Sequence record: NC_012638.1 | DNA length: 64,000 nucleotides | From: Escherichia phage RB14 | Reading direction: 5' to 3' (one strand) | Shown here: in pieces, positions 24,793 through 28,783 of the stretch | How the letters are laid out: every line of letters begins with the position of its first letter | How positions within the stretch are numbered: position 1 is the stretch's first letter | Made by a program: the position numbers and the translations under genes | The notes under the pieces: generated by a model | Database searches by the model: none | The model's input: the letters and a program-made list of their open reading frames with translations, nothing else | What the model was told of the DNA's origin: nothing

Positions 24793-25374
24793 CTAACCGA
24801 GCTTTTTAGTTAATTCATTCCAATGTTTTCTACACAAAGAAACATAAATTTCATCACCAATACAGATTTGATTACCTTCTTTAACTGGTGTTCCATCTTC
24901 CATTAATCGAGCTGTCATAATCGCTTTTTTACCGCAATGACAAACTGCTTTTAGTTCAATAAGTTTATCTGCAATCGCTAAAAGTTCTTTAGAACCTTCA
25001 AACAATTTTCCAGCGAAATCAGTCCTTAATCCATAAGCCATAACAGGAACATTATATGTATCAACAATTCGGCTCAATTGATGCACTTGTTCAGTTTTTA
25101 AAAACTGAGCTTCATCTACAAATACGCAATGAATATCTTTTTGTGCTTCAGCCCATTTATAGAACTCGAAAATATCCATATCATCTGTAATAATATTCGC
25201 TTCCTGCTTAATTCCAATGCGAGAAACAACTTCACAGACAGAATCGCGAGTATCAATAGCAGGCTTAAGAACTAATACACTCATTCCACGTTCTTTATAA
25301 TTATGTGCAGCAGTCAAAAGAGAAGCAGATTTTCCAGCATTCATTGCTGCATAAGTAAAAATTAAACTCGCCAT
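24793..25374 (-). CDS. tk: Thymidine kinase
   Basis: 193 aa; P-loop AMNAGKS; C-terminal Cys pairs CHCG / C..C. Confidence 0.93.
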   Translation of the reverse strand: MASLIFTYAAMNAGKSASLLTAAHNYKERGMSVLVLKPAIDTRDSVCEVVSRIGIKQEANIITDDMDIFEFYKWAEAQKDIHCVFVDEAQFLKTEQVHQLSRIVDTYNVPVMAYGLRTDFAGKLFEGSKELLAIADKLIELKAVCHCGKKAIMTARLMEDGTPVKEGNQICIGDEIYVSLCRKHWNELTKKLG

Positions 25375-25375
25375 T

Positions 25376-25564
25376 TTAGTCCTTAGTTAAATTTTCTAAA
25401 TATGTTTCTAAATCATTTTCAGCTTTATCGATAGATTTTACTAATTCGTAATATGTTTCGGCATCTCCATAATCAGAAGATAATTCAAAAGACAAATCCT
25501 TTTCTAAACTAATAATTTCACCAACTAAAAATAATATTTCGTTCTTTTGTTCGCGAGTAATCAT
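25376..25564 (-). CDS. small helical protein, TxEQ family member
   Basis: 62 aa MITREQKNEILFL...TYLENLTKD. Confidence 0.45.
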   Translation of the reverse strand: MITREQKNEILFLVGEIISLEKDLSFELSSDYGDAETYYELVKSIDKAENDLETYLENLTKD

Positions 25565-25746
25565 AAAGAATTTATATAATCAATGAGTTCTTGTTCTTTA
25601 TTATCGAATTCTTTAGAAAGTTCTTCGTATTCATTTGCATTAAAAGGACCGCATTCATCACAAACTTTTTCCAATTCACTGTTTTTATCCATAACTTCGT
25701 GGATAAGAGAAAAGAGTTTGTCTTTTTGTTCTTTGCTTAAACTCAT
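25561..25746 (-). CDS. small helical protein, TxEQ family member
   Basis: 61 aa MSLSKEQKDKLFSL...LIDYINSL. Confidence 0.45.
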   Translation of the reverse strand: MSLSKEQKDKLFSLIHEVMDKNSELEKVCDECGPFNANEYEELSKEFDNKEQELIDYINSL

Positions 25747-25748
25747 AT

Positions 25749-25916
25749 ATTAATTTCCAAAAGTTTTAAAATAATTCGCTTTTGCTTAAATATTTCCACA
25801 GTTAAATGATCAGTATCTTTTTGACCAATTCCAATGGCAAAACCTTTATTAACAGCGAGTTCAATTAAATTATCAAGTTCACGTAACACTTCATATTGTA
25901 ACTCAGAACTATTCAT
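25749..25916 (-). CDS. small hypothetical protein (55 aa)
   Basis: Manually read ORF MNSSELQYEVLRELDNLIEL...; ATGA overlaps on both sides. Confidence 0.35.
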
Positions 25917-26125
25917 TTCGGTTTACCTTCTTTAACGAAATCTGGATAAGGATAAAATCCCGAATAAAATCCTTCACCTTTATGATTGATACATCCTTTA
26001 TTAGAACAATAGCACCAATAATCGAAATCACAAGCCATTTCATCGTTGCATAAAGCAAAAACAACCGGCCATTTACACTTTTCACAGTGGGCATTTTTAA
26101 GAATACTAGTTTGGCTCATAACCAT
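25913..26125 (-). CDS. Cys-rich small protein (probable zinc binding)
   Basis: 70 aa with 9 Cys (CEKCKW...CNDEMACDFDYWCYCSNKGC). Confidence 0.5.
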   Translation of the reverse strand: MVMSQTSILKNAHCEKCKWPVVFALCNDEMACDFDYWCYCSNKGCINHKGEGFYSGFYPYPDFVKEGKPK

Positions 26126-26343
26126 GTCACCTTTAAGCAGTATTCTTCTACATGCTGTTTACGACCTTTCTTATCAATAAAGGTATATTCAACGAATGTT
26201 CCAATGTAGTCTTTATCTACATCGTGTGGACTATTAATTGGACATTTAGTACGGCAAATGCGTTCCCATTGACGAATAATTACTGCCTTATTCTTTGGGT
26301 CATACGGATGTGGATAATGTATATTCATAATAATGGTTCCCAA
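26116..26343 (-). CDS. hypothetical protein
   Basis: ORF track 75 aa. Confidence 0.5.
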   Translation of the reverse strand: MGTIIMNIHYPHPYDPKNKAVIIRQWERICRTKCPINSPHDVDKDYIGTFVEYTFIDKKGRKQHVEEYCLKVTWL

Positions 26344-26792
26344 TCAACAATCACAATTTCTAATTTAGAGGAATACGTATCTAAAATATCTTCAATAATA
26401 TCCCAGTTCCCTTTACCTATGCCTGCACCAATCCTAGGCATATAGATTGTAGGTTTAATTAGTTTATTTTCACCAAACTCATTTAATTCTAACATACAAT
26501 TCATTAAAGCGGAATACTCAAAATTTGGCCCTGGTTGAAATTGAGTATAAAGGTTGAAGCAATACGCTTTATGAGTCCTAAAGTATTTTTCATAGACTGA
26601 ATAAGAACCGAGTTTAGTTACATCACCCCATTCAGTCTGTAATTTATCAGCTTCCAAAATTTTAGGGAAAGCTTTGGTTAATTGACCCGCTACGCCTGAA
26701 CCCATAGTATGAAAACAATTGCATCCATGCGCAATATTTTTACCTTCAGCGAAAAGGGCGACAATATCGCCCTTGATATATTTTACAATCAT
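26325..26792 (-). CDS. Macrodomain protein, TARG1/DarG-like
   Basis: 155 aa; IKGDI...NIAHGCNCFHTMGSGVAGQL...KAF and YMPRIGAGIGKGNW match the OARD1/TARG1-type macrodomain pattern. Confidence 0.65.
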   Translation of the reverse strand: MIVKYIKGDIVALFAEGKNIAHGCNCFHTMGSGVAGQLTKAFPKILEADKLQTEWGDVTKLGSYSVYEKYFRTHKAYCFNLYTQFQPGPNFEYSALMNCMLELNEFGENKLIKPTIYMPRIGAGIGKGNWDIIEDILDTYSSKLEIVIVDWEPLL

Positions 26793-27136
26793 CTAGTACT
26801 CAATCCTCGATTATAAGAATCTACCAAACGGTCAACCATTGAATGACAAGCGGCTTTATCTTTCTCCTCCGCAACTGAACATTCTAAAGTATTCCACTTT
26901 TTAGCATATCGTTTTAACAATGTATAGTTTTTGTATCTGCTTGATTTATCCCTTTCTCCGTCTTTATATGCATATATTAATTTCTGTGCAAATTCAGCTT
27001 GACATGCTTTATTTTTCCCACAATAATCTGCCGCAGTGCGGTTTACATATTCTCTAATTTCAGTATATGATGTATCTGCTGACGCAGAAGCAGAAAATGA
27101 AATTAATCCTATACATAAAACCAAAATTTTAGTCAT
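26789..27136 (-). CDS. secreted Cys-containing protein (vs position)
   Basis: 115 aa; signal peptide MTKILVLCIGLISFSASASA; 4 Cys. Confidence 0.5.
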   Translation of the reverse strand: MTKILVLCIGLISFSASASADTSYTEIREYVNRTAADYCGKNKACQAEFAQKLIYAYKDGERDKSSRYKNYTLLKRYAKKWNTLECSVAEEKDKAACHSMVDRLVDSYNRGLSTR

Positions 27137-27674
27137 TTACTATTTCCAAAAGTTTATTATTTTTAAGGTAATTAGCCTTTTCTAGGACTTCAGAAGCATA
27201 TTTAGAACCTGCTTTAACATTCCATCCCGAATTATAAGAGGATATTGCTTTTCTTATATCTCCCTTATGTATATTTAACCAATAAGAAAGTTCAATGTAC
27301 GCCCAGGAAGCTGAATTGGACCGTTTATTCAACATTCTTTTTATTTCAGCATCGGTCATATTATAACCAAGTTCCTTAACTCTTGCTCGCATAGTAGGCA
27401 AATAATTTTGGAACATTCCGTAGGCGTGATGCTTTGGTTTAGATTTTAAATTAACTCCGCCAGAGCTTTCTTGCCATAAAATAGCAGCCATTATATGACC
27501 TAATCCGCTCTTGTGGATATTTTTGTGTGTTTTATATTTTCCATCCTTAGAAAATTGTTCCCCGAATTGATACGCGTAACGCATGTTATCGAGTTGGACA
27601 TTACTGAAAGTATGCTCGGAGCTATGTGCCATCATTGAAATGGCCAATAGACCAGCGAGTAGTGCTTTTCTCAT
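27129..27674 (-). CDS. lytic transglycosylase-like periplasmic protein
   Basis: 181 aa; signal peptide MRKALLAGLLAISMMAHS; SLT-like motifs QESSGG and YGMFQ. Confidence 0.55.
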   Translation of the reverse strand: MRKALLAGLLAISMMAHSSEHTFSNVQLDNMRYAYQFGEQFSKDGKYKTHKNIHKSGLGHIMAAILWQESSGGVNLKSKPKHHAYGMFQNYLPTMRARVKELGYNMTDAEIKRMLNKRSNSASWAYIELSYWLNIHKGDIRKAISSYNSGWNVKAGSKYASEVLEKANYLKNNKLLEIVND

Positions 27675-27681
27675 GCTTACC

Positions 27682-28143
27682 TCATTGAGTTTTAATTACT
27701 GCTTTAGAAGCCTTTCCTGGTAAACGACGACTGTTGATAATTGCCATCCTACATTGAAGTGACGGGTCTTTGAACTTCTCATTAGGTTTACAAACCGTAA
27801 ATCCAAGCCAAAGATTTCCATCTGTGATTTCTAAACGTCCAGGACGATATTCAACCCCATCAATAAAATCCTCGTCAATGTCAGGACGCGGAGGCATACT
27901 CAGAAATTCATTAACTTCTAAAACATGGTCTTTTATTTTATGGAATAATTCAAAAACGTATGTCTCATCAATCTCCCGTTGAATTGCGCGATCAAGAAGA
28001 TGCTGAGAATATTTTAGATGAAACGATGAGACCCCTGCTGCTTTTGATGCCTCACGAATCTCATTGTTAATTTGACGAAACTCCGACTCAAAGTGACGAC
28101 GAAGCTTATTTCGACGGATAAAAACTTCTGTATTGATAGTCAT
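27682..28143 (-). CDS. regB: Endoribonuclease RegB
   Basis: 153 aa; N-terminus MTINTEVFIRRNKLRRHFESEF as remembered for T4 RegB; early promoter directly upstream. Confidence 0.85.
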   Translation of the reverse strand: MTINTEVFIRRNKLRRHFESEFRQINNEIREASKAAGVSSFHLKYSQHLLDRAIQREIDETYVFELFHKIKDHVLEVNEFLSMPPRPDIDEDFIDGVEYRPGRLEITDGNLWLGFTVCKPNEKFKDPSLQCRMAIINSRRLPGKASKAVIKTQ

Positions 28144-28202: not shown

Positions 28203-28481
28203 TTATTCTTTAAATCTAATCAATTTATTCATAGACTTTGAAACTTCTGCACGAACCTCATGTAAGTTTTTAAGCTGTTCAAGACGCTGCTCATAGTAAG
28301 CAATTTCATCTTCTTCGAGACAGTCCTGTGAATCTTCTTTAAGATAACGTGCATAGTCCTGAAAAGCTTTACGGACTACTTCCTGGAAGTCATCAAGACT
28401 TTGAATTTTCTTAGGAGCGGCAGATACACGACGAGGTGCAGTATAATACTCATAACCAAACCCTGCACTTAATTGAGCCAT
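28203..28481 (-). CDS. hypothetical protein (vs.x region)
   Basis: 92 aa from ATG at 28481; track start 28523 is upstream. Confidence 0.45.
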
Positions 28482-28783
28482 TAGTATTTTTCCTCTGGTT
28501 GGAACACTGCACGACAAGCCCACATACTGGCTTCTTTGAGTTTCGTTTTAGCAATAGTTAACTGATCGAGGCTTTCAGCATAATTCTTCGCGAGTTCATC
28601 ATCTTCACAGCTATCGAATGCTTCCCAGAATTCATCGTATAAAGCATCAAAGATAAGTCCTAAACGAACTTCAGCGTCTTTGATAGCATTCACTTTACCG
28701 ATTTTCTCTTCAGTATGCGGCTTATAACCTTTAATGTCTTCAATCATATTTGACTTCCTCACCAGTACATAAATCATATTCAA
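28481..28783 (-). CDS. hypothetical small helical protein (vs.x region; possible Acb2/Vs.4 position)
   Basis: 100 aa in track; 88 aa if started at 28747. Confidence 0.4.

What the first reader, a model, noticed from the sequence alone, without database searches (positions are those of the whole stretch)
26325..26792. TARG1/DarG-type macrodomain gene in the early region: candidate reversal of ADP-ribosylation (anti-DarT?)
The 155-aa product carries both signature blocks of the OARD1/TARG1-type macrodomain (KGDI...AHGCNCFHTMGSGVAGQL...KAF and MPRIGAGIGKGNW). This is the same macrodomain type as the DarG antitoxin, which removes ADP-ribose from DNA. A phage-encoded stand-alone copy, in an operon of small early genes downstream of tk, could counter DarT-like ADP-ribosylating defences. 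The function is not established.
Basis: partly seen in the sequence, partly recalled or inferred. Interest (0 to 1): 0.7.

Follow-up and report, generated by a model that had tools for sequence, protein, structure and literature searches.

The report
T4 tk.4/adfM anti-DarT2 macrodomain gene

Summary

The anti-DarT idea is already confirmed genetically for T4. In the HIDEN-SEQ preprint (Nov 2025), tk.4 was the only transposon hit against DarTG2, and a clean knockout sensitised T4. The gene was renamed adfM. Enzymatic removal of ADP-ribose from DNA is still only inferred.

My refinement is that this is not a DarG- or TARG1-type active site.
- The catalytic lysine (DarG K80, TARG1 K84) is replaced by a glutamine, invariant in about 250 relatives.
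- TARG1 D125 is a glycine here.
- The DarT-binding domain is absent.
- The family groups with SCO6735/BT1257, where the equivalent Gln85 is essential and thymidine-ADP-ribose on DNA is cleaved without a lysine.
- PhiKZ gp104, independently also named AdfM, keeps the lysine and clusters with DarG, so the two "AdfM" proteins are different lineages.

Verdict: already known, with modest remaining mechanistic interest.

The parts
26325..26792 (-). tk.4 / adfM coding sequence (155 aa, ATG...TGA), a stand-alone macrodomain protein
   Evidence: ORF. 154/155 identical to T4 Tk.4 NP_049723. Pfam Macro. High-confidence macro fold.
26804..26808 (-). Shine-Dalgarno-like GAGGA, 11 nt upstream of the tk.4 ATG and inside the 3' end of vs
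   Evidence: Read directly from the minus-strand sequence. Inferred from sequence only.
26789..26792 (-). ATGA overlap: tk.4 start codon (26792-26790) overlaps the vs stop codon (26791-26789), suggesting translational coupling
   Evidence: Sequence. ORF coordinates.
26325..26328 (-). ATGA overlap: tk.4 stop codon (26327-26325) overlaps the tk.3 start codon (26328-26326)
   Evidence: Sequence. tk.3 boundaries taken from the T2 annotation.
26718..26729 (-). Codons for H22-G23-C24-N25 (HGCN motif). N25 is equivalent to SCO6735 Asn27, DarG Asn22 and PhiKZ AdfM Asn23. H22 is equivalent to Poa1p His23 and TARG1 His32.
   Evidence: Alignment. N25 is present in 105/106 and 142/142 relatives. The Asn is functionally important in SCO6735 (PMC9411070) and in PhiKZ AdfM, where N23A reduces activity (PMC13309987).
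26688..26705 (-). Codons for M30-A35 (MGSGVA), the first glycine-rich ADP-ribose/phosphate-binding loop
   Evidence: G33 and A35 are invariant. The stretch aligns with VMGKGIA of DarG.
26541..26552 (-). Codons for L81-Y82-T83-Q84. Q84 (CAA, 26543-26541) occupies the position of the catalytic Lys of DarG (K80) and TARG1 (K84), and of Gln85 of SCO6735.
   Evidence: hhalign against Mtb DarG. HMM alignment to TARG1 and BT1257. MAFFT alignment. Q84 is invariant in 106/106 and 142/142 relatives.
26403..26438 (-). Codons for P119-W130 (PRIGAGIGKGNW), the second glycine-rich diphosphate-binding loop. G126 sits at the position of TARG1 Asp125.
   Evidence: P119, I121, G122 and G124 are invariant. Alignment to TARG1 MPRIGCGLDRLQW.
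24793..28143 (-). Tightly packed co-oriented gene block regB, vs.1, vs, tk.4, tk.3, two small ORFs, tk.2, tk.1, tk. Junctions range from a 7-nt gap to a 10-nt overlap. This is the likely transcription unit that contains tk.4.
   Evidence: ORF coordinates. Annotations. PHROG assignments. No minus-strand terminator-like site. A promoter-like site TTTACT-17-TATAAT with an extended TG lies at 28199-28171 just upstream of regB, but promoter-like sites are not above chance overall.

Best explanation
The ORF is the ortholog of T4 tk.4, now called adfM (anti-DarT factor, macrodomain). It is made from a tightly packed block of genes that runs from regB to tk.

Proposed mechanism: when the phage infects a cell carrying DarTG2, the DarT2 toxin ADP-ribosylates thymidines in single-stranded phage DNA and blocks replication. 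Tk.4 binds the ADP-ribose moiety in its macrodomain cleft and hydrolyses the thymidine-ribose bond, restoring replicable DNA. In effect it is an orphan antitoxin without the DarT-binding domain.

I propose that the chemistry is not that of DarG or TARG1. The catalytic lysine is replaced by an invariant glutamine (Q84), held next to an invariant asparagine (N25). This is the arrangement in SCO6735, where catalysis is lysine-independent, probably water-mediated, and the Gln positions the distal ribose.

Shown elsewhere: the genetic requirement of T4 tk.4 for growth on a DarTG2 host.
Shown here: orthology, fold, class, active-site composition and family-wide conservation.
Inferred: the hydrolytic activity itself, its substrate (T-ADPr on ssDNA) and the SCO6735-like mechanism.
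For: - Orthology: 154/155 identity to T4 Tk.4, with the same neighbours vs and tk.3. The single difference, D135 versus G, lies at a highly variable helix position.
- Genetics: tk.4 was the only HIDEN-SEQ hit on a DarTG2 host, and a clean knockout was sensitised (bioRxiv 10.1101/2025.11.20.689424).
- Active site: Q84 aligns with DarG K80, TARG1 K84 and SCO6735 Q85. N25 aligns with SCO6735 N27.
- Conservation: Q84 is invariant in both sets examined (106/106; 142/142). N25 is found in 105/106 and 142/142, and Y82 in all.
- Precedent: SCO6735 cleaves DarT-made T-ADPr on DNA faster than DarG or TARG1. Q85A is inactive and N27S nearly inactive (PMC9411070).
- Phylogeny: the Tk.4 family groups with BT1257/SCO6735 against DarG, TARG1 and PhiKZ gp104 in 90% of bootstraps, or 81% without the diagnostic columns.
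- Fusions: some family members are fused to NADAR, the guanine-ADPr DNA hydrolase family of DarG1/AdfN. This fits a role in erasing ADP-ribose from DNA bases.
Against: - No biochemical assay exists for the T4-type protein. The preprint only infers hydrolysis, and the passages I read show no complementation and no catalytic mutant.
- The lysine essential in DarG and TARG1 is missing.
- The longer 'mobile loop' that marks the SCO6735/BT1257 subclass is also missing. Tk.4 has 8 residues between Q84 and Y93, BT1257 has 14. Transfer of the SCO6735 mechanism is therefore by analogy.
- Sequence and structure distances to BT1257, Poa1p, DarG and TARG1 are nearly equal.
- A comparative-genomics survey argued that phage macrodomains mostly act on small ADP-ribose derivatives (PMC9503650).
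- The tree is a simple NJ tree of 17 sequences.
Confidence: 0.75

Rival explanations
1. Tk.4 mainly processes small soluble ADP-ribose derivatives, such as ADP-ribose-1''-phosphate (a Poa1p-like phosphatase), O-acetyl-ADP-ribose, or ADPr-derived immune signals. Under this view DarTG2 protection is secondary or indirect.
For: - The historical annotation is 'phosphatase, A1pp motif', and PHROG 335 is named 'phosphatase'.
- H22 aligns with the Poa1p histidine whose H23A mutant was crystallised.
- Family members are fused to DUF4326, a predicted phosphatase of ribose-linked phosphates, and to NADAR (PMC9503650).
- That survey explicitly favours small-molecule substrates for phage macrodomains.
Against: - The only phenotype known for tk.4 is sensitivity to DarTG2, a DNA-modifying system.
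- Poa1p has Ser, not Gln, at position 84. The residue aligned with Poa1p Ser30 (whose S30A mutant was crystallised) is T29, which is variable in the family: T in 68/106.
- The invariant Gln/Asn pair matches the DNA T-ADPr hydrolase SCO6735.
Confidence: 0.1
2. Tk.4 neutralises DarT2 without catalysis. It would act as a reader or shield of ADP-ribosylated DNA, or bind the toxin, because it lacks the catalytic lysine.
For: - DarG K80 and TARG1 K84 are replaced by Gln, and TARG1 D125 by Gly.
- Non-catalytic ADP-ribose-reading macrodomains are known to exist (e.g. macroH2A; PMC9503650).
- Other anti-DarT factors, AdfA and AdfB, act by binding the toxin (PMC11825919).
Against: - Q84 and N25 are conserved in essentially all of about 250 diverse relatives, as expected for catalytic residues.
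- The same Gln/Asn pair supports very fast catalysis in SCO6735.
- There is no extra domain for toxin binding. The protein is 155 aa and matches only the macro part of the DarG profiles.
Confidence: 0.07
3. Tk.4 regulates the phage's own ADP-ribosylation programme by reversing modifications of host proteins or RNA made by the T4 transferases Alt, ModA and ModB.
For: - T-even phages carry three ADP-ribosyltransferases (PMC9503650).
- TARG1 and SCO6735 also de-modify proteins.
Against: - tk.4 is dispensable on plain E. coli K-12 and was selected only on the DarTG2 host.
- Alt and Mod enzymes modify arginine, a linkage macrodomains are not known to cleave (my own knowledge, not tested here).
- CmdTAC, an mRNA ADP-ribosyltransferase, still defends strongly against wild-type T4, so Tk.4 does not broadly erase RNA ADP-ribosylation (PMC11618068).
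Confidence: 0.04

Closest known systems
T4 Tk.4 = AdfM (anti-DarT factor Macrodomain), HIDEN-SEQ preprint 2025
   Same: Orthologous: 154/155 identical, with the same flanking genes vs and tk.3. By inference it has the same role, protection against DarTG2.
   Different: One substitution (D135 here, G135 in T4) at a variable helix position. This phage also has two extra small ORFs between tk.2 and tk.3, as in T2.
SCO6735 (Streptomyces coelicolor) and BT1257 (Bacteroides), Gln-type ALC1-like macrodomains
   Different: Only 20-29% identity. Tk.4 lacks their mobile loop, which is 5-6 residues longer. These are cellular proteins and SCO6735 is DNA-damage-inducible, so they are not phage anti-defence genes.
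DarG antitoxin of DarTG2 (Mtb 5m3i, T. aquaticus 5m31/5m3e)
   Different: Catalytic K80 is Gln in Tk.4. There is no C-terminal DarT-binding domain and no adjacent darT. Tk.4 scores 31 bits against a cut-off of 250. On the PADLOC DarG model it scores 37 bits, against 263 for the Mtb DarG macrodomain.
PhiKZ gp104, also named AdfM (Cell Rep 2026, PMC13309987)
   Same: A stand-alone phage macrodomain that counters DarTG2. In vitro removal of T-ADPr has been shown for gp104.
   Different: gp104 keeps the DarG motif FPTK, scores 133 bits on the DarG model and clusters with DarG in 100% of bootstraps. It is about 18% identical to Tk.4. The two proteins are different lineages that share a name.
Human TARG1/OARD1
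   Same: Top Foldseek hit. It shares the MPRIGxG...W loop and has the same loop length after position 84. TARG1 also reverses T-ADPr on DNA (PMC8501950 abstract).
   Different: The Lys84/Asp125 catalytic dyad is Gln84/Gly126 in Tk.4.
T4 AdfN (gene 30.3), NADAR-type anti-DarTG1 factor
   Same: Same strategy, an orphan antitoxin-like eraser of DNA ADP-ribosylation in T-even phages (PMC11825919). Tk.4-type macro and NADAR domains are fused in some relatives.
   Different: Unrelated fold. It acts on guanine-ADPr made by DarT1 and not on DarTG2 modifications.

Membership tests
Macro domain superfamily (Pfam PF01661) | Profile match above the curated gathering score | tested here: met
   28.4 bits against a cut-off of 22, E=1.7e-6, covering profile 2-117 of 118.
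Macro domain superfamily (Pfam PF01661) | Three-layer alpha/beta/alpha macro fold with two glycine-rich ADP-ribose-binding loops | tested here: met
ALC1-like macrodomain class (TARG1, DarG, Poa1p, SCO6735) | Closest relatives by sequence and structure are members of this class rather than MacroD, PARG or macroH2A types | tested here: met
DarG antitoxin (NCBIfam NF048014 equivalog; PADLOC DarG) | Full-length match above the curated cut-off, including the C-terminal DarT-binding domain | tested here: not met
   31.4 bits against a cut-off of 250. Only profile positions 2-147 of 338 are matched, and 2-145 of 329 in PADLOC. The protein is 155 aa.
DarG antitoxin (NCBIfam NF048014 equivalog; PADLOC DarG) | Catalytic lysine (K80) in the FPTK motif | tested here: not met
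   LYTQ, with Q84 at that position. Gln is invariant in the family.
DarG antitoxin (NCBIfam NF048014 equivalog; PADLOC DarG) | Encoded next to a darT toxin gene | tested here: not met
   The neighbours are vs and tk.3. No DarT-like protein lies in the block.
TARG1/OARD1 | Lys84/Asp125 catalytic dyad | tested here: not met
   Q84 and G126 occupy the aligned positions.
SCO6735/BT1257 Gln-type subclass | Gln at the catalytic-Lys position, supported by the conserved Asn (SCO6735 Gln85/Asn27) | tested here: met
   Q84 and N25 align with these residues and are conserved in essentially all relatives. Definition taken from PMC9411070.
SCO6735/BT1257 Gln-type subclass | Extended 'mobile loop', about 5 residues longer than in DarG and TARG1 | tested here: not met
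   Tk.4 has 8 residues between Q84 and Y93, as in TARG1. BT1257 has 14. Within the Tk.4 family the loop varies from 8 to 21 residues, mostly 8 or 11.
SCO6735/BT1257 Gln-type subclass | Hydrolysis of thymidine-linked ADP-ribose on ssDNA | not testable with these tools
   Requires an enzyme assay. Not reported for T4 Tk.4 in the literature searched.
AdfM of T4 (anti-DarTG2 factor, tk.4) | Orthology to T4 tk.4 by sequence and synteny | tested here: met
   154/155 identity. Same vs-tk.4-tk.3 arrangement.
AdfM of T4 (anti-DarTG2 factor, tk.4) | Required for plaque formation on DarTG2-expressing hosts | not testable with these tools
   Reported for T4 in bioRxiv 10.1101/2025.11.20.689424. Not tested for this phage.
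AdfM of PhiKZ (gp104, DarG2-like) | DarG-like sequence with the FPTK lysine; clusters with DarG macrodomains | tested here: not met
   gp104 scores 133 bits on the PADLOC DarG model, Tk.4 scores 37. gp104 groups with DarG in 100% of bootstraps and Tk.4 lies on the other side of the split.
Poa1p-type ADP-ribose-1''-phosphate phosphatase | Residues His23 and Ser30 of Poa1p (mutants crystallised as 6lfs and 6lft) | tested here: inconclusive
   H22 aligns with His23 and is conserved in 101/106. The Ser30 position is T29 and variable, T in 68/106. Position 84 is Ser in Poa1p and Gln here. Activity not testable.

The most novel reading that the evidence does not exclude
Tk.4/AdfM(T4) is not a captured DarG antitoxin. 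It would be the phage representative of a separate, very large Gln-type macrodomain lineage: 1,366 clusters at 50% identity with E<=1e-30, and relatives in about 5.6% of phage genome records. This lineage would erase thymidine-ADP-ribose from DNA by a lysine-independent, SCO6735-like mechanism.

If so, phages recruited two different macrodomain lineages against DarT2: the DarG-like one in PhiKZ and the Gln-type one in T4. The Gln-type family, sometimes fused to NADAR and DUF4326, may have a broader range of nucleic-acid or small-molecule ADP-ribose substrates than DarG.
Probability: 0.55. Interest if true: 0.45.

Novelty: already known. Interest (0 to 1): 0.3.

Why it matters
DarTG is a widespread toxin-antitoxin defence that stops phages by ADP-ribosylating their DNA. 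Knowing which phage genes erase that mark helps explain host range and matters for choosing therapeutic phages.

For this gene the biological role is already published as a preprint, so the scan finding adds no new function. What is left is mechanistic. The T4-type protein lacks the lysine that DarG and TARG1 need and instead resembles SCO6735. This predicts a different chemistry and an independent evolutionary origin from the PhiKZ protein that shares the name AdfM. It also flags a naming collision that could mislead annotation pipelines, and most records still label this gene 'phosphatase' or 'hypothetical protein'.

Tried and rejected
- **Cellular origin.** I looked for a cellular source of the Tk.4 family through the two hits labelled as bacterial MAGs (P0072 Bacilli, P0119 Culicoidibacterales). 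Both contigs are T4-like phage DNA carrying Rnl1, Pnk, a Dda-like helicase, dCMP deaminase and a T4 spanin. They give no evidence for a bacterial, DarT-linked ancestor.
- **Promoters.** The promoter scan found 31 promoter-like sites against 27.7 +/- 5.4 in shuffles. The 'early' timing therefore cannot be supported from the sequence. Only the plausible site upstream of regB and the absence of minus-strand terminators are noted.
- **Biochemistry in the literature.** I searched for work on the T4 protein under other names (NP_049723, 'T4 macrodomain', 'T4 Tk.4') and found nothing relevant. The JACS 2026 hydrolase-specificity paper did not test it.
- **Broad RNA ADP-ribose erasure.** I considered that Tk.4 might erase RNA ADP-ribosylation broadly. 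This is rejected because CmdTAC still defends strongly against wild-type T4.
- **DarG-type assignment.** I considered filing the protein as DarG-type on the strength of the PADLOC and NCBIfam hits. This is rejected after control scans: human TARG1 scores higher on the DarG model than Tk.4 does, and BT1257 scores about the same.
- **Pairwise BT1257 alignment.** The phmmer pairwise alignment to BT1257 misplaces the Gln by a loop gap. The profile alignment and MAFFT were used instead.

Full report
**Observation.** The ORF exists exactly at 26325-26792 but is encoded on the minus strand. It runs from ATG at 26792-26790 to TGA at 26327-26325 and encodes 155 aa. The 5.5 kb around it is 98-99% identical to T2, RB18, SHBML-50-1 and other Tequatrovirus genomes. 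In the T2 and T4 records the gene is tk.4. The product is 154/155 identical to T4 Tk.4 (NP_049723). The one difference, D135 here and G135 in T4, lies in a helix at a position that varies freely in the family.

**Gene context.**
- The gene order on the minus strand is regB, vs.1, vs, tk.4, tk.3, two small ORFs, tk.2, tk.1, tk.
- The block is tightly packed. tk.4 overlaps vs and tk.3 by ATGA at both ends, and a GAGGA lies 11 nt before its start codon.
- No terminator-like hairpin lies on the minus strand between 24500 and 31000. A good promoter-like site sits just upstream of regB, but promoter-like sites are not enriched over shuffles, so timing cannot be read from the sequence.

**What it is.**
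- Pfam Macro is matched above the gathering threshold.
- An AlphaFold2 model built on 106 homologs has mean pLDDT 96.3 and the expected strand/helix order.
- Foldseek ranks TARG1 first.
- A profile of the family finds the same set by sequence at E 2e-19 to 4e-12, against about 1e-3 for coronavirus and alphavirus macrodomains.
- In the two defence-oriented HMM libraries, DarG is the only hit.

**What is already known.**
In the HIDEN-SEQ preprint (bioRxiv 10.1101/2025.11.20.689424, Nov 2025), a transposon library of T4 grown on E. coli expressing DarTG2 gave a single significant hit, tk.4. A clean deletion made T4 sensitive to DarTG2, and the gene was named adfM.
- The authors infer enzymatic removal of ADP-ribose from DNA from structural similarity to Mtb DarG. 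The passages I read contain no enzyme assay, no catalytic mutant and no discussion of active-site residues.
- T4 30.3/AdfN, a NADAR protein, plays the equivalent role against DarTG1 (PMC11825919).
- No other paper on Tk.4 turned up.

**Refinement: the active site is not DarG-like.**
- I obtained verified sequences of the solved relatives from the PDB alignments and of PhiKZ gp104 from its paper.
- hhalign of the family against Mtb DarG, the HMM alignments to TARG1 and BT1257 and a MAFFT alignment all agree. DarG N76-F-P-T-K80 and TARG1 L-I-T-K84 align with Tk.4 N80-L-Y-T-Q84. TARG1 D125 aligns with G126.
- Q84 is invariant in 106/106 homologs and in 142/142 representatives from an exhaustive search. 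N25 is present in 105/106 and 142/142, and Y82 in all.
- The Gln/Asn pair is what defines SCO6735 and BT1257. In SCO6735, Gln85 replaces the lysine, Q85A is inactive and N27S nearly so. The enzyme removes DarT-made thymidine-ADP-ribose from DNA faster than DarG or TARG1, and a water-mediated mechanism was proposed (PMC9411070).
- On the PADLOC DarG model the scores are: Mtb DarG macrodomain 263 bits, PhiKZ gp104 133, human TARG1 66, Tk.4 37, BT1257 32.
- In a 17-sequence NJ analysis the Tk.4 family is monophyletic (100%). It groups with BT1257/SCO6735 against TARG1, the DarGs and gp104 in 90% of bootstraps, or 81% with the diagnostic columns removed. gp104 groups with the DarGs in 100%.
- One caveat: Tk.4 lacks the 5-6-residue longer 'mobile loop' of SCO6735/BT1257. 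Its loop length equals that of TARG1. It is best described as a distinct short-loop branch of the Gln-type enzymes.

**Name collision.** PhiKZ gp104 was independently named AdfM (Cell Rep 2026, PMC13309987) and shown in vitro to remove T-ADPr. It retains FPTK and is a bona fide DarG-like macrodomain. The T4 and PhiKZ 'AdfM' proteins are about 18% identical and belong to different lineages.

**Distribution.**
- Relatives occur in 2,841 of 50,697 phage records. They are found in T4-like, rV5-like, FelixO1-like, Pakpuna-like, Vi1-like, Campylobacter, Vibrio and Acinetobacter phages.
- The exhaustive profile search finds 18,980 cluster representatives at E<=1e-3 and 1,366 at E<=1e-30.
- The two hits labelled as bacterial MAGs are T4-like phage contigs.
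- A few members are fused. P0218 is Tk.4-type Macro + NADAR + DUF4326, and P0236 is DUF4326 + Macro. Such fusions were noted earlier in a comparative survey that favoured small-molecule substrates for phage macrodomains (PMC9503650). The NADAR fusion fits the DNA-base de-ADP-ribosylation theme. The DUF4326 fusion keeps the small-molecule rival alive.

**Mechanism proposed.**
- DarT2 ADP-ribosylates thymidines in single-stranded phage DNA. Tk.4 binds the ADP-ribose between its two glycine-rich loops and hydrolyses the base-ribose bond.
- Q84, positioned by N25, would orient the distal ribose, and a backbone-held water would act as nucleophile, as proposed for SCO6735.
- Tk.4 has no DarT-binding domain, so it should act only by erasing the mark.
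- The genetic requirement is shown for T4. The hydrolysis, its substrate and the chemistry are inferred.

**Rivals.** Three alternatives are less likely but not excluded: small-molecule ADP-ribose processing or Appr1p phosphatase activity; non-catalytic binding; and reversal of the phage's own Alt/Mod modifications. CmdTAC still defends against wild-type T4, so Tk.4 is not a general eraser of RNA ADP-ribosylation.

**Verdict.** The residual interest is the lysine-less active site and the independent origin relative to PhiKZ AdfM and DarG. Both are directly testable with a handful of point mutants.

Noticed in passing
window 28481-28741 (-): The vs.4 ORF, about 1.7 kb upstream of tk.4 on the same strand and just beyond the regB end of its gene block, matches PDB 7uq2 'Vs.4' at E=3.6e-52. 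PHROGs lists it as unknown function. From my own knowledge, Vs.4 is the anti-CBASS cyclic-nucleotide sponge Acb2, so this stretch carries at least two counter-defence genes.
   Followed up: partly
window 25743-25916 (-) and 25913-26125 (-): Two small ORFs (57 and 70 aa; PHROG 3452 and 2306, unknown function) lie between tk.2 and tk.3. They are present in T2 but absent at this place in T4, where tk.2 abuts tk.3.
   Followed up: no
window 25376-25564 (-) and 25561-25746 (-): tk.1 and tk.2 both match the same PHROG (653, unknown function; E 1e-22 and 1e-24). They appear to be tandem paralogs.
   Followed up: no
proteins P0218 (472 aa) and P0236 (302 aa) from the representative search; locus L003 41-343: Tk.4-type macrodomains occur fused to NADAR and DUF4326 (P0218) or to DUF4326 alone (P0236). 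In a T4-like phage contig a separate DUF4326 gene lies three genes upstream of the macro gene, next to RNA ligase 1. DUF4326 is predicted elsewhere to be a phosphatase acting on ribose-linked phosphates (PMC9503650).
   Followed up: partly
literature: T4 tk.4 versus PhiKZ gp104: The name AdfM has been given independently to two non-orthologous phage macrodomains. T4 Tk.4 is Gln-type and PhiKZ gp104 is Lys-type and DarG-like. They are about 18% identical and fall on opposite sides of a 90%-supported split.
   Followed up: yes
window 26754-26774: An 8-bp GC-rich inverted repeat (AAGGGCGA...TCGCCCTT) lies within codons 7-13 of tk.4. On the plus (antisense) strand it is followed by a T-run and was flagged as terminator-like. 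On the sense strand it would form a hairpin 19-39 nt after the start codon. It may be chance.
   Followed up: no
window 27129-27674 (-), vs.1: Vs.1 (181 aa) starts with a hydrophobic, signal-like N-terminus and has a weak match to a 'lytic tail protein' PHROG. In another T4-like contig an SLT-domain gene lies two genes from the macro gene (L004 7387-7893). Its function is unexplained.
   Followed up: no
annotation of tk.4 orthologs in public phage records: The same gene is variously labelled 'phosphatase', 'hypothetical protein', 'macro domain protein', 'Poa1p-like family protein' and 'O-acetyl-ADP-ribose deacetylase'. None of the records seen reflects the anti-DarTG2 role.
   Followed up: no
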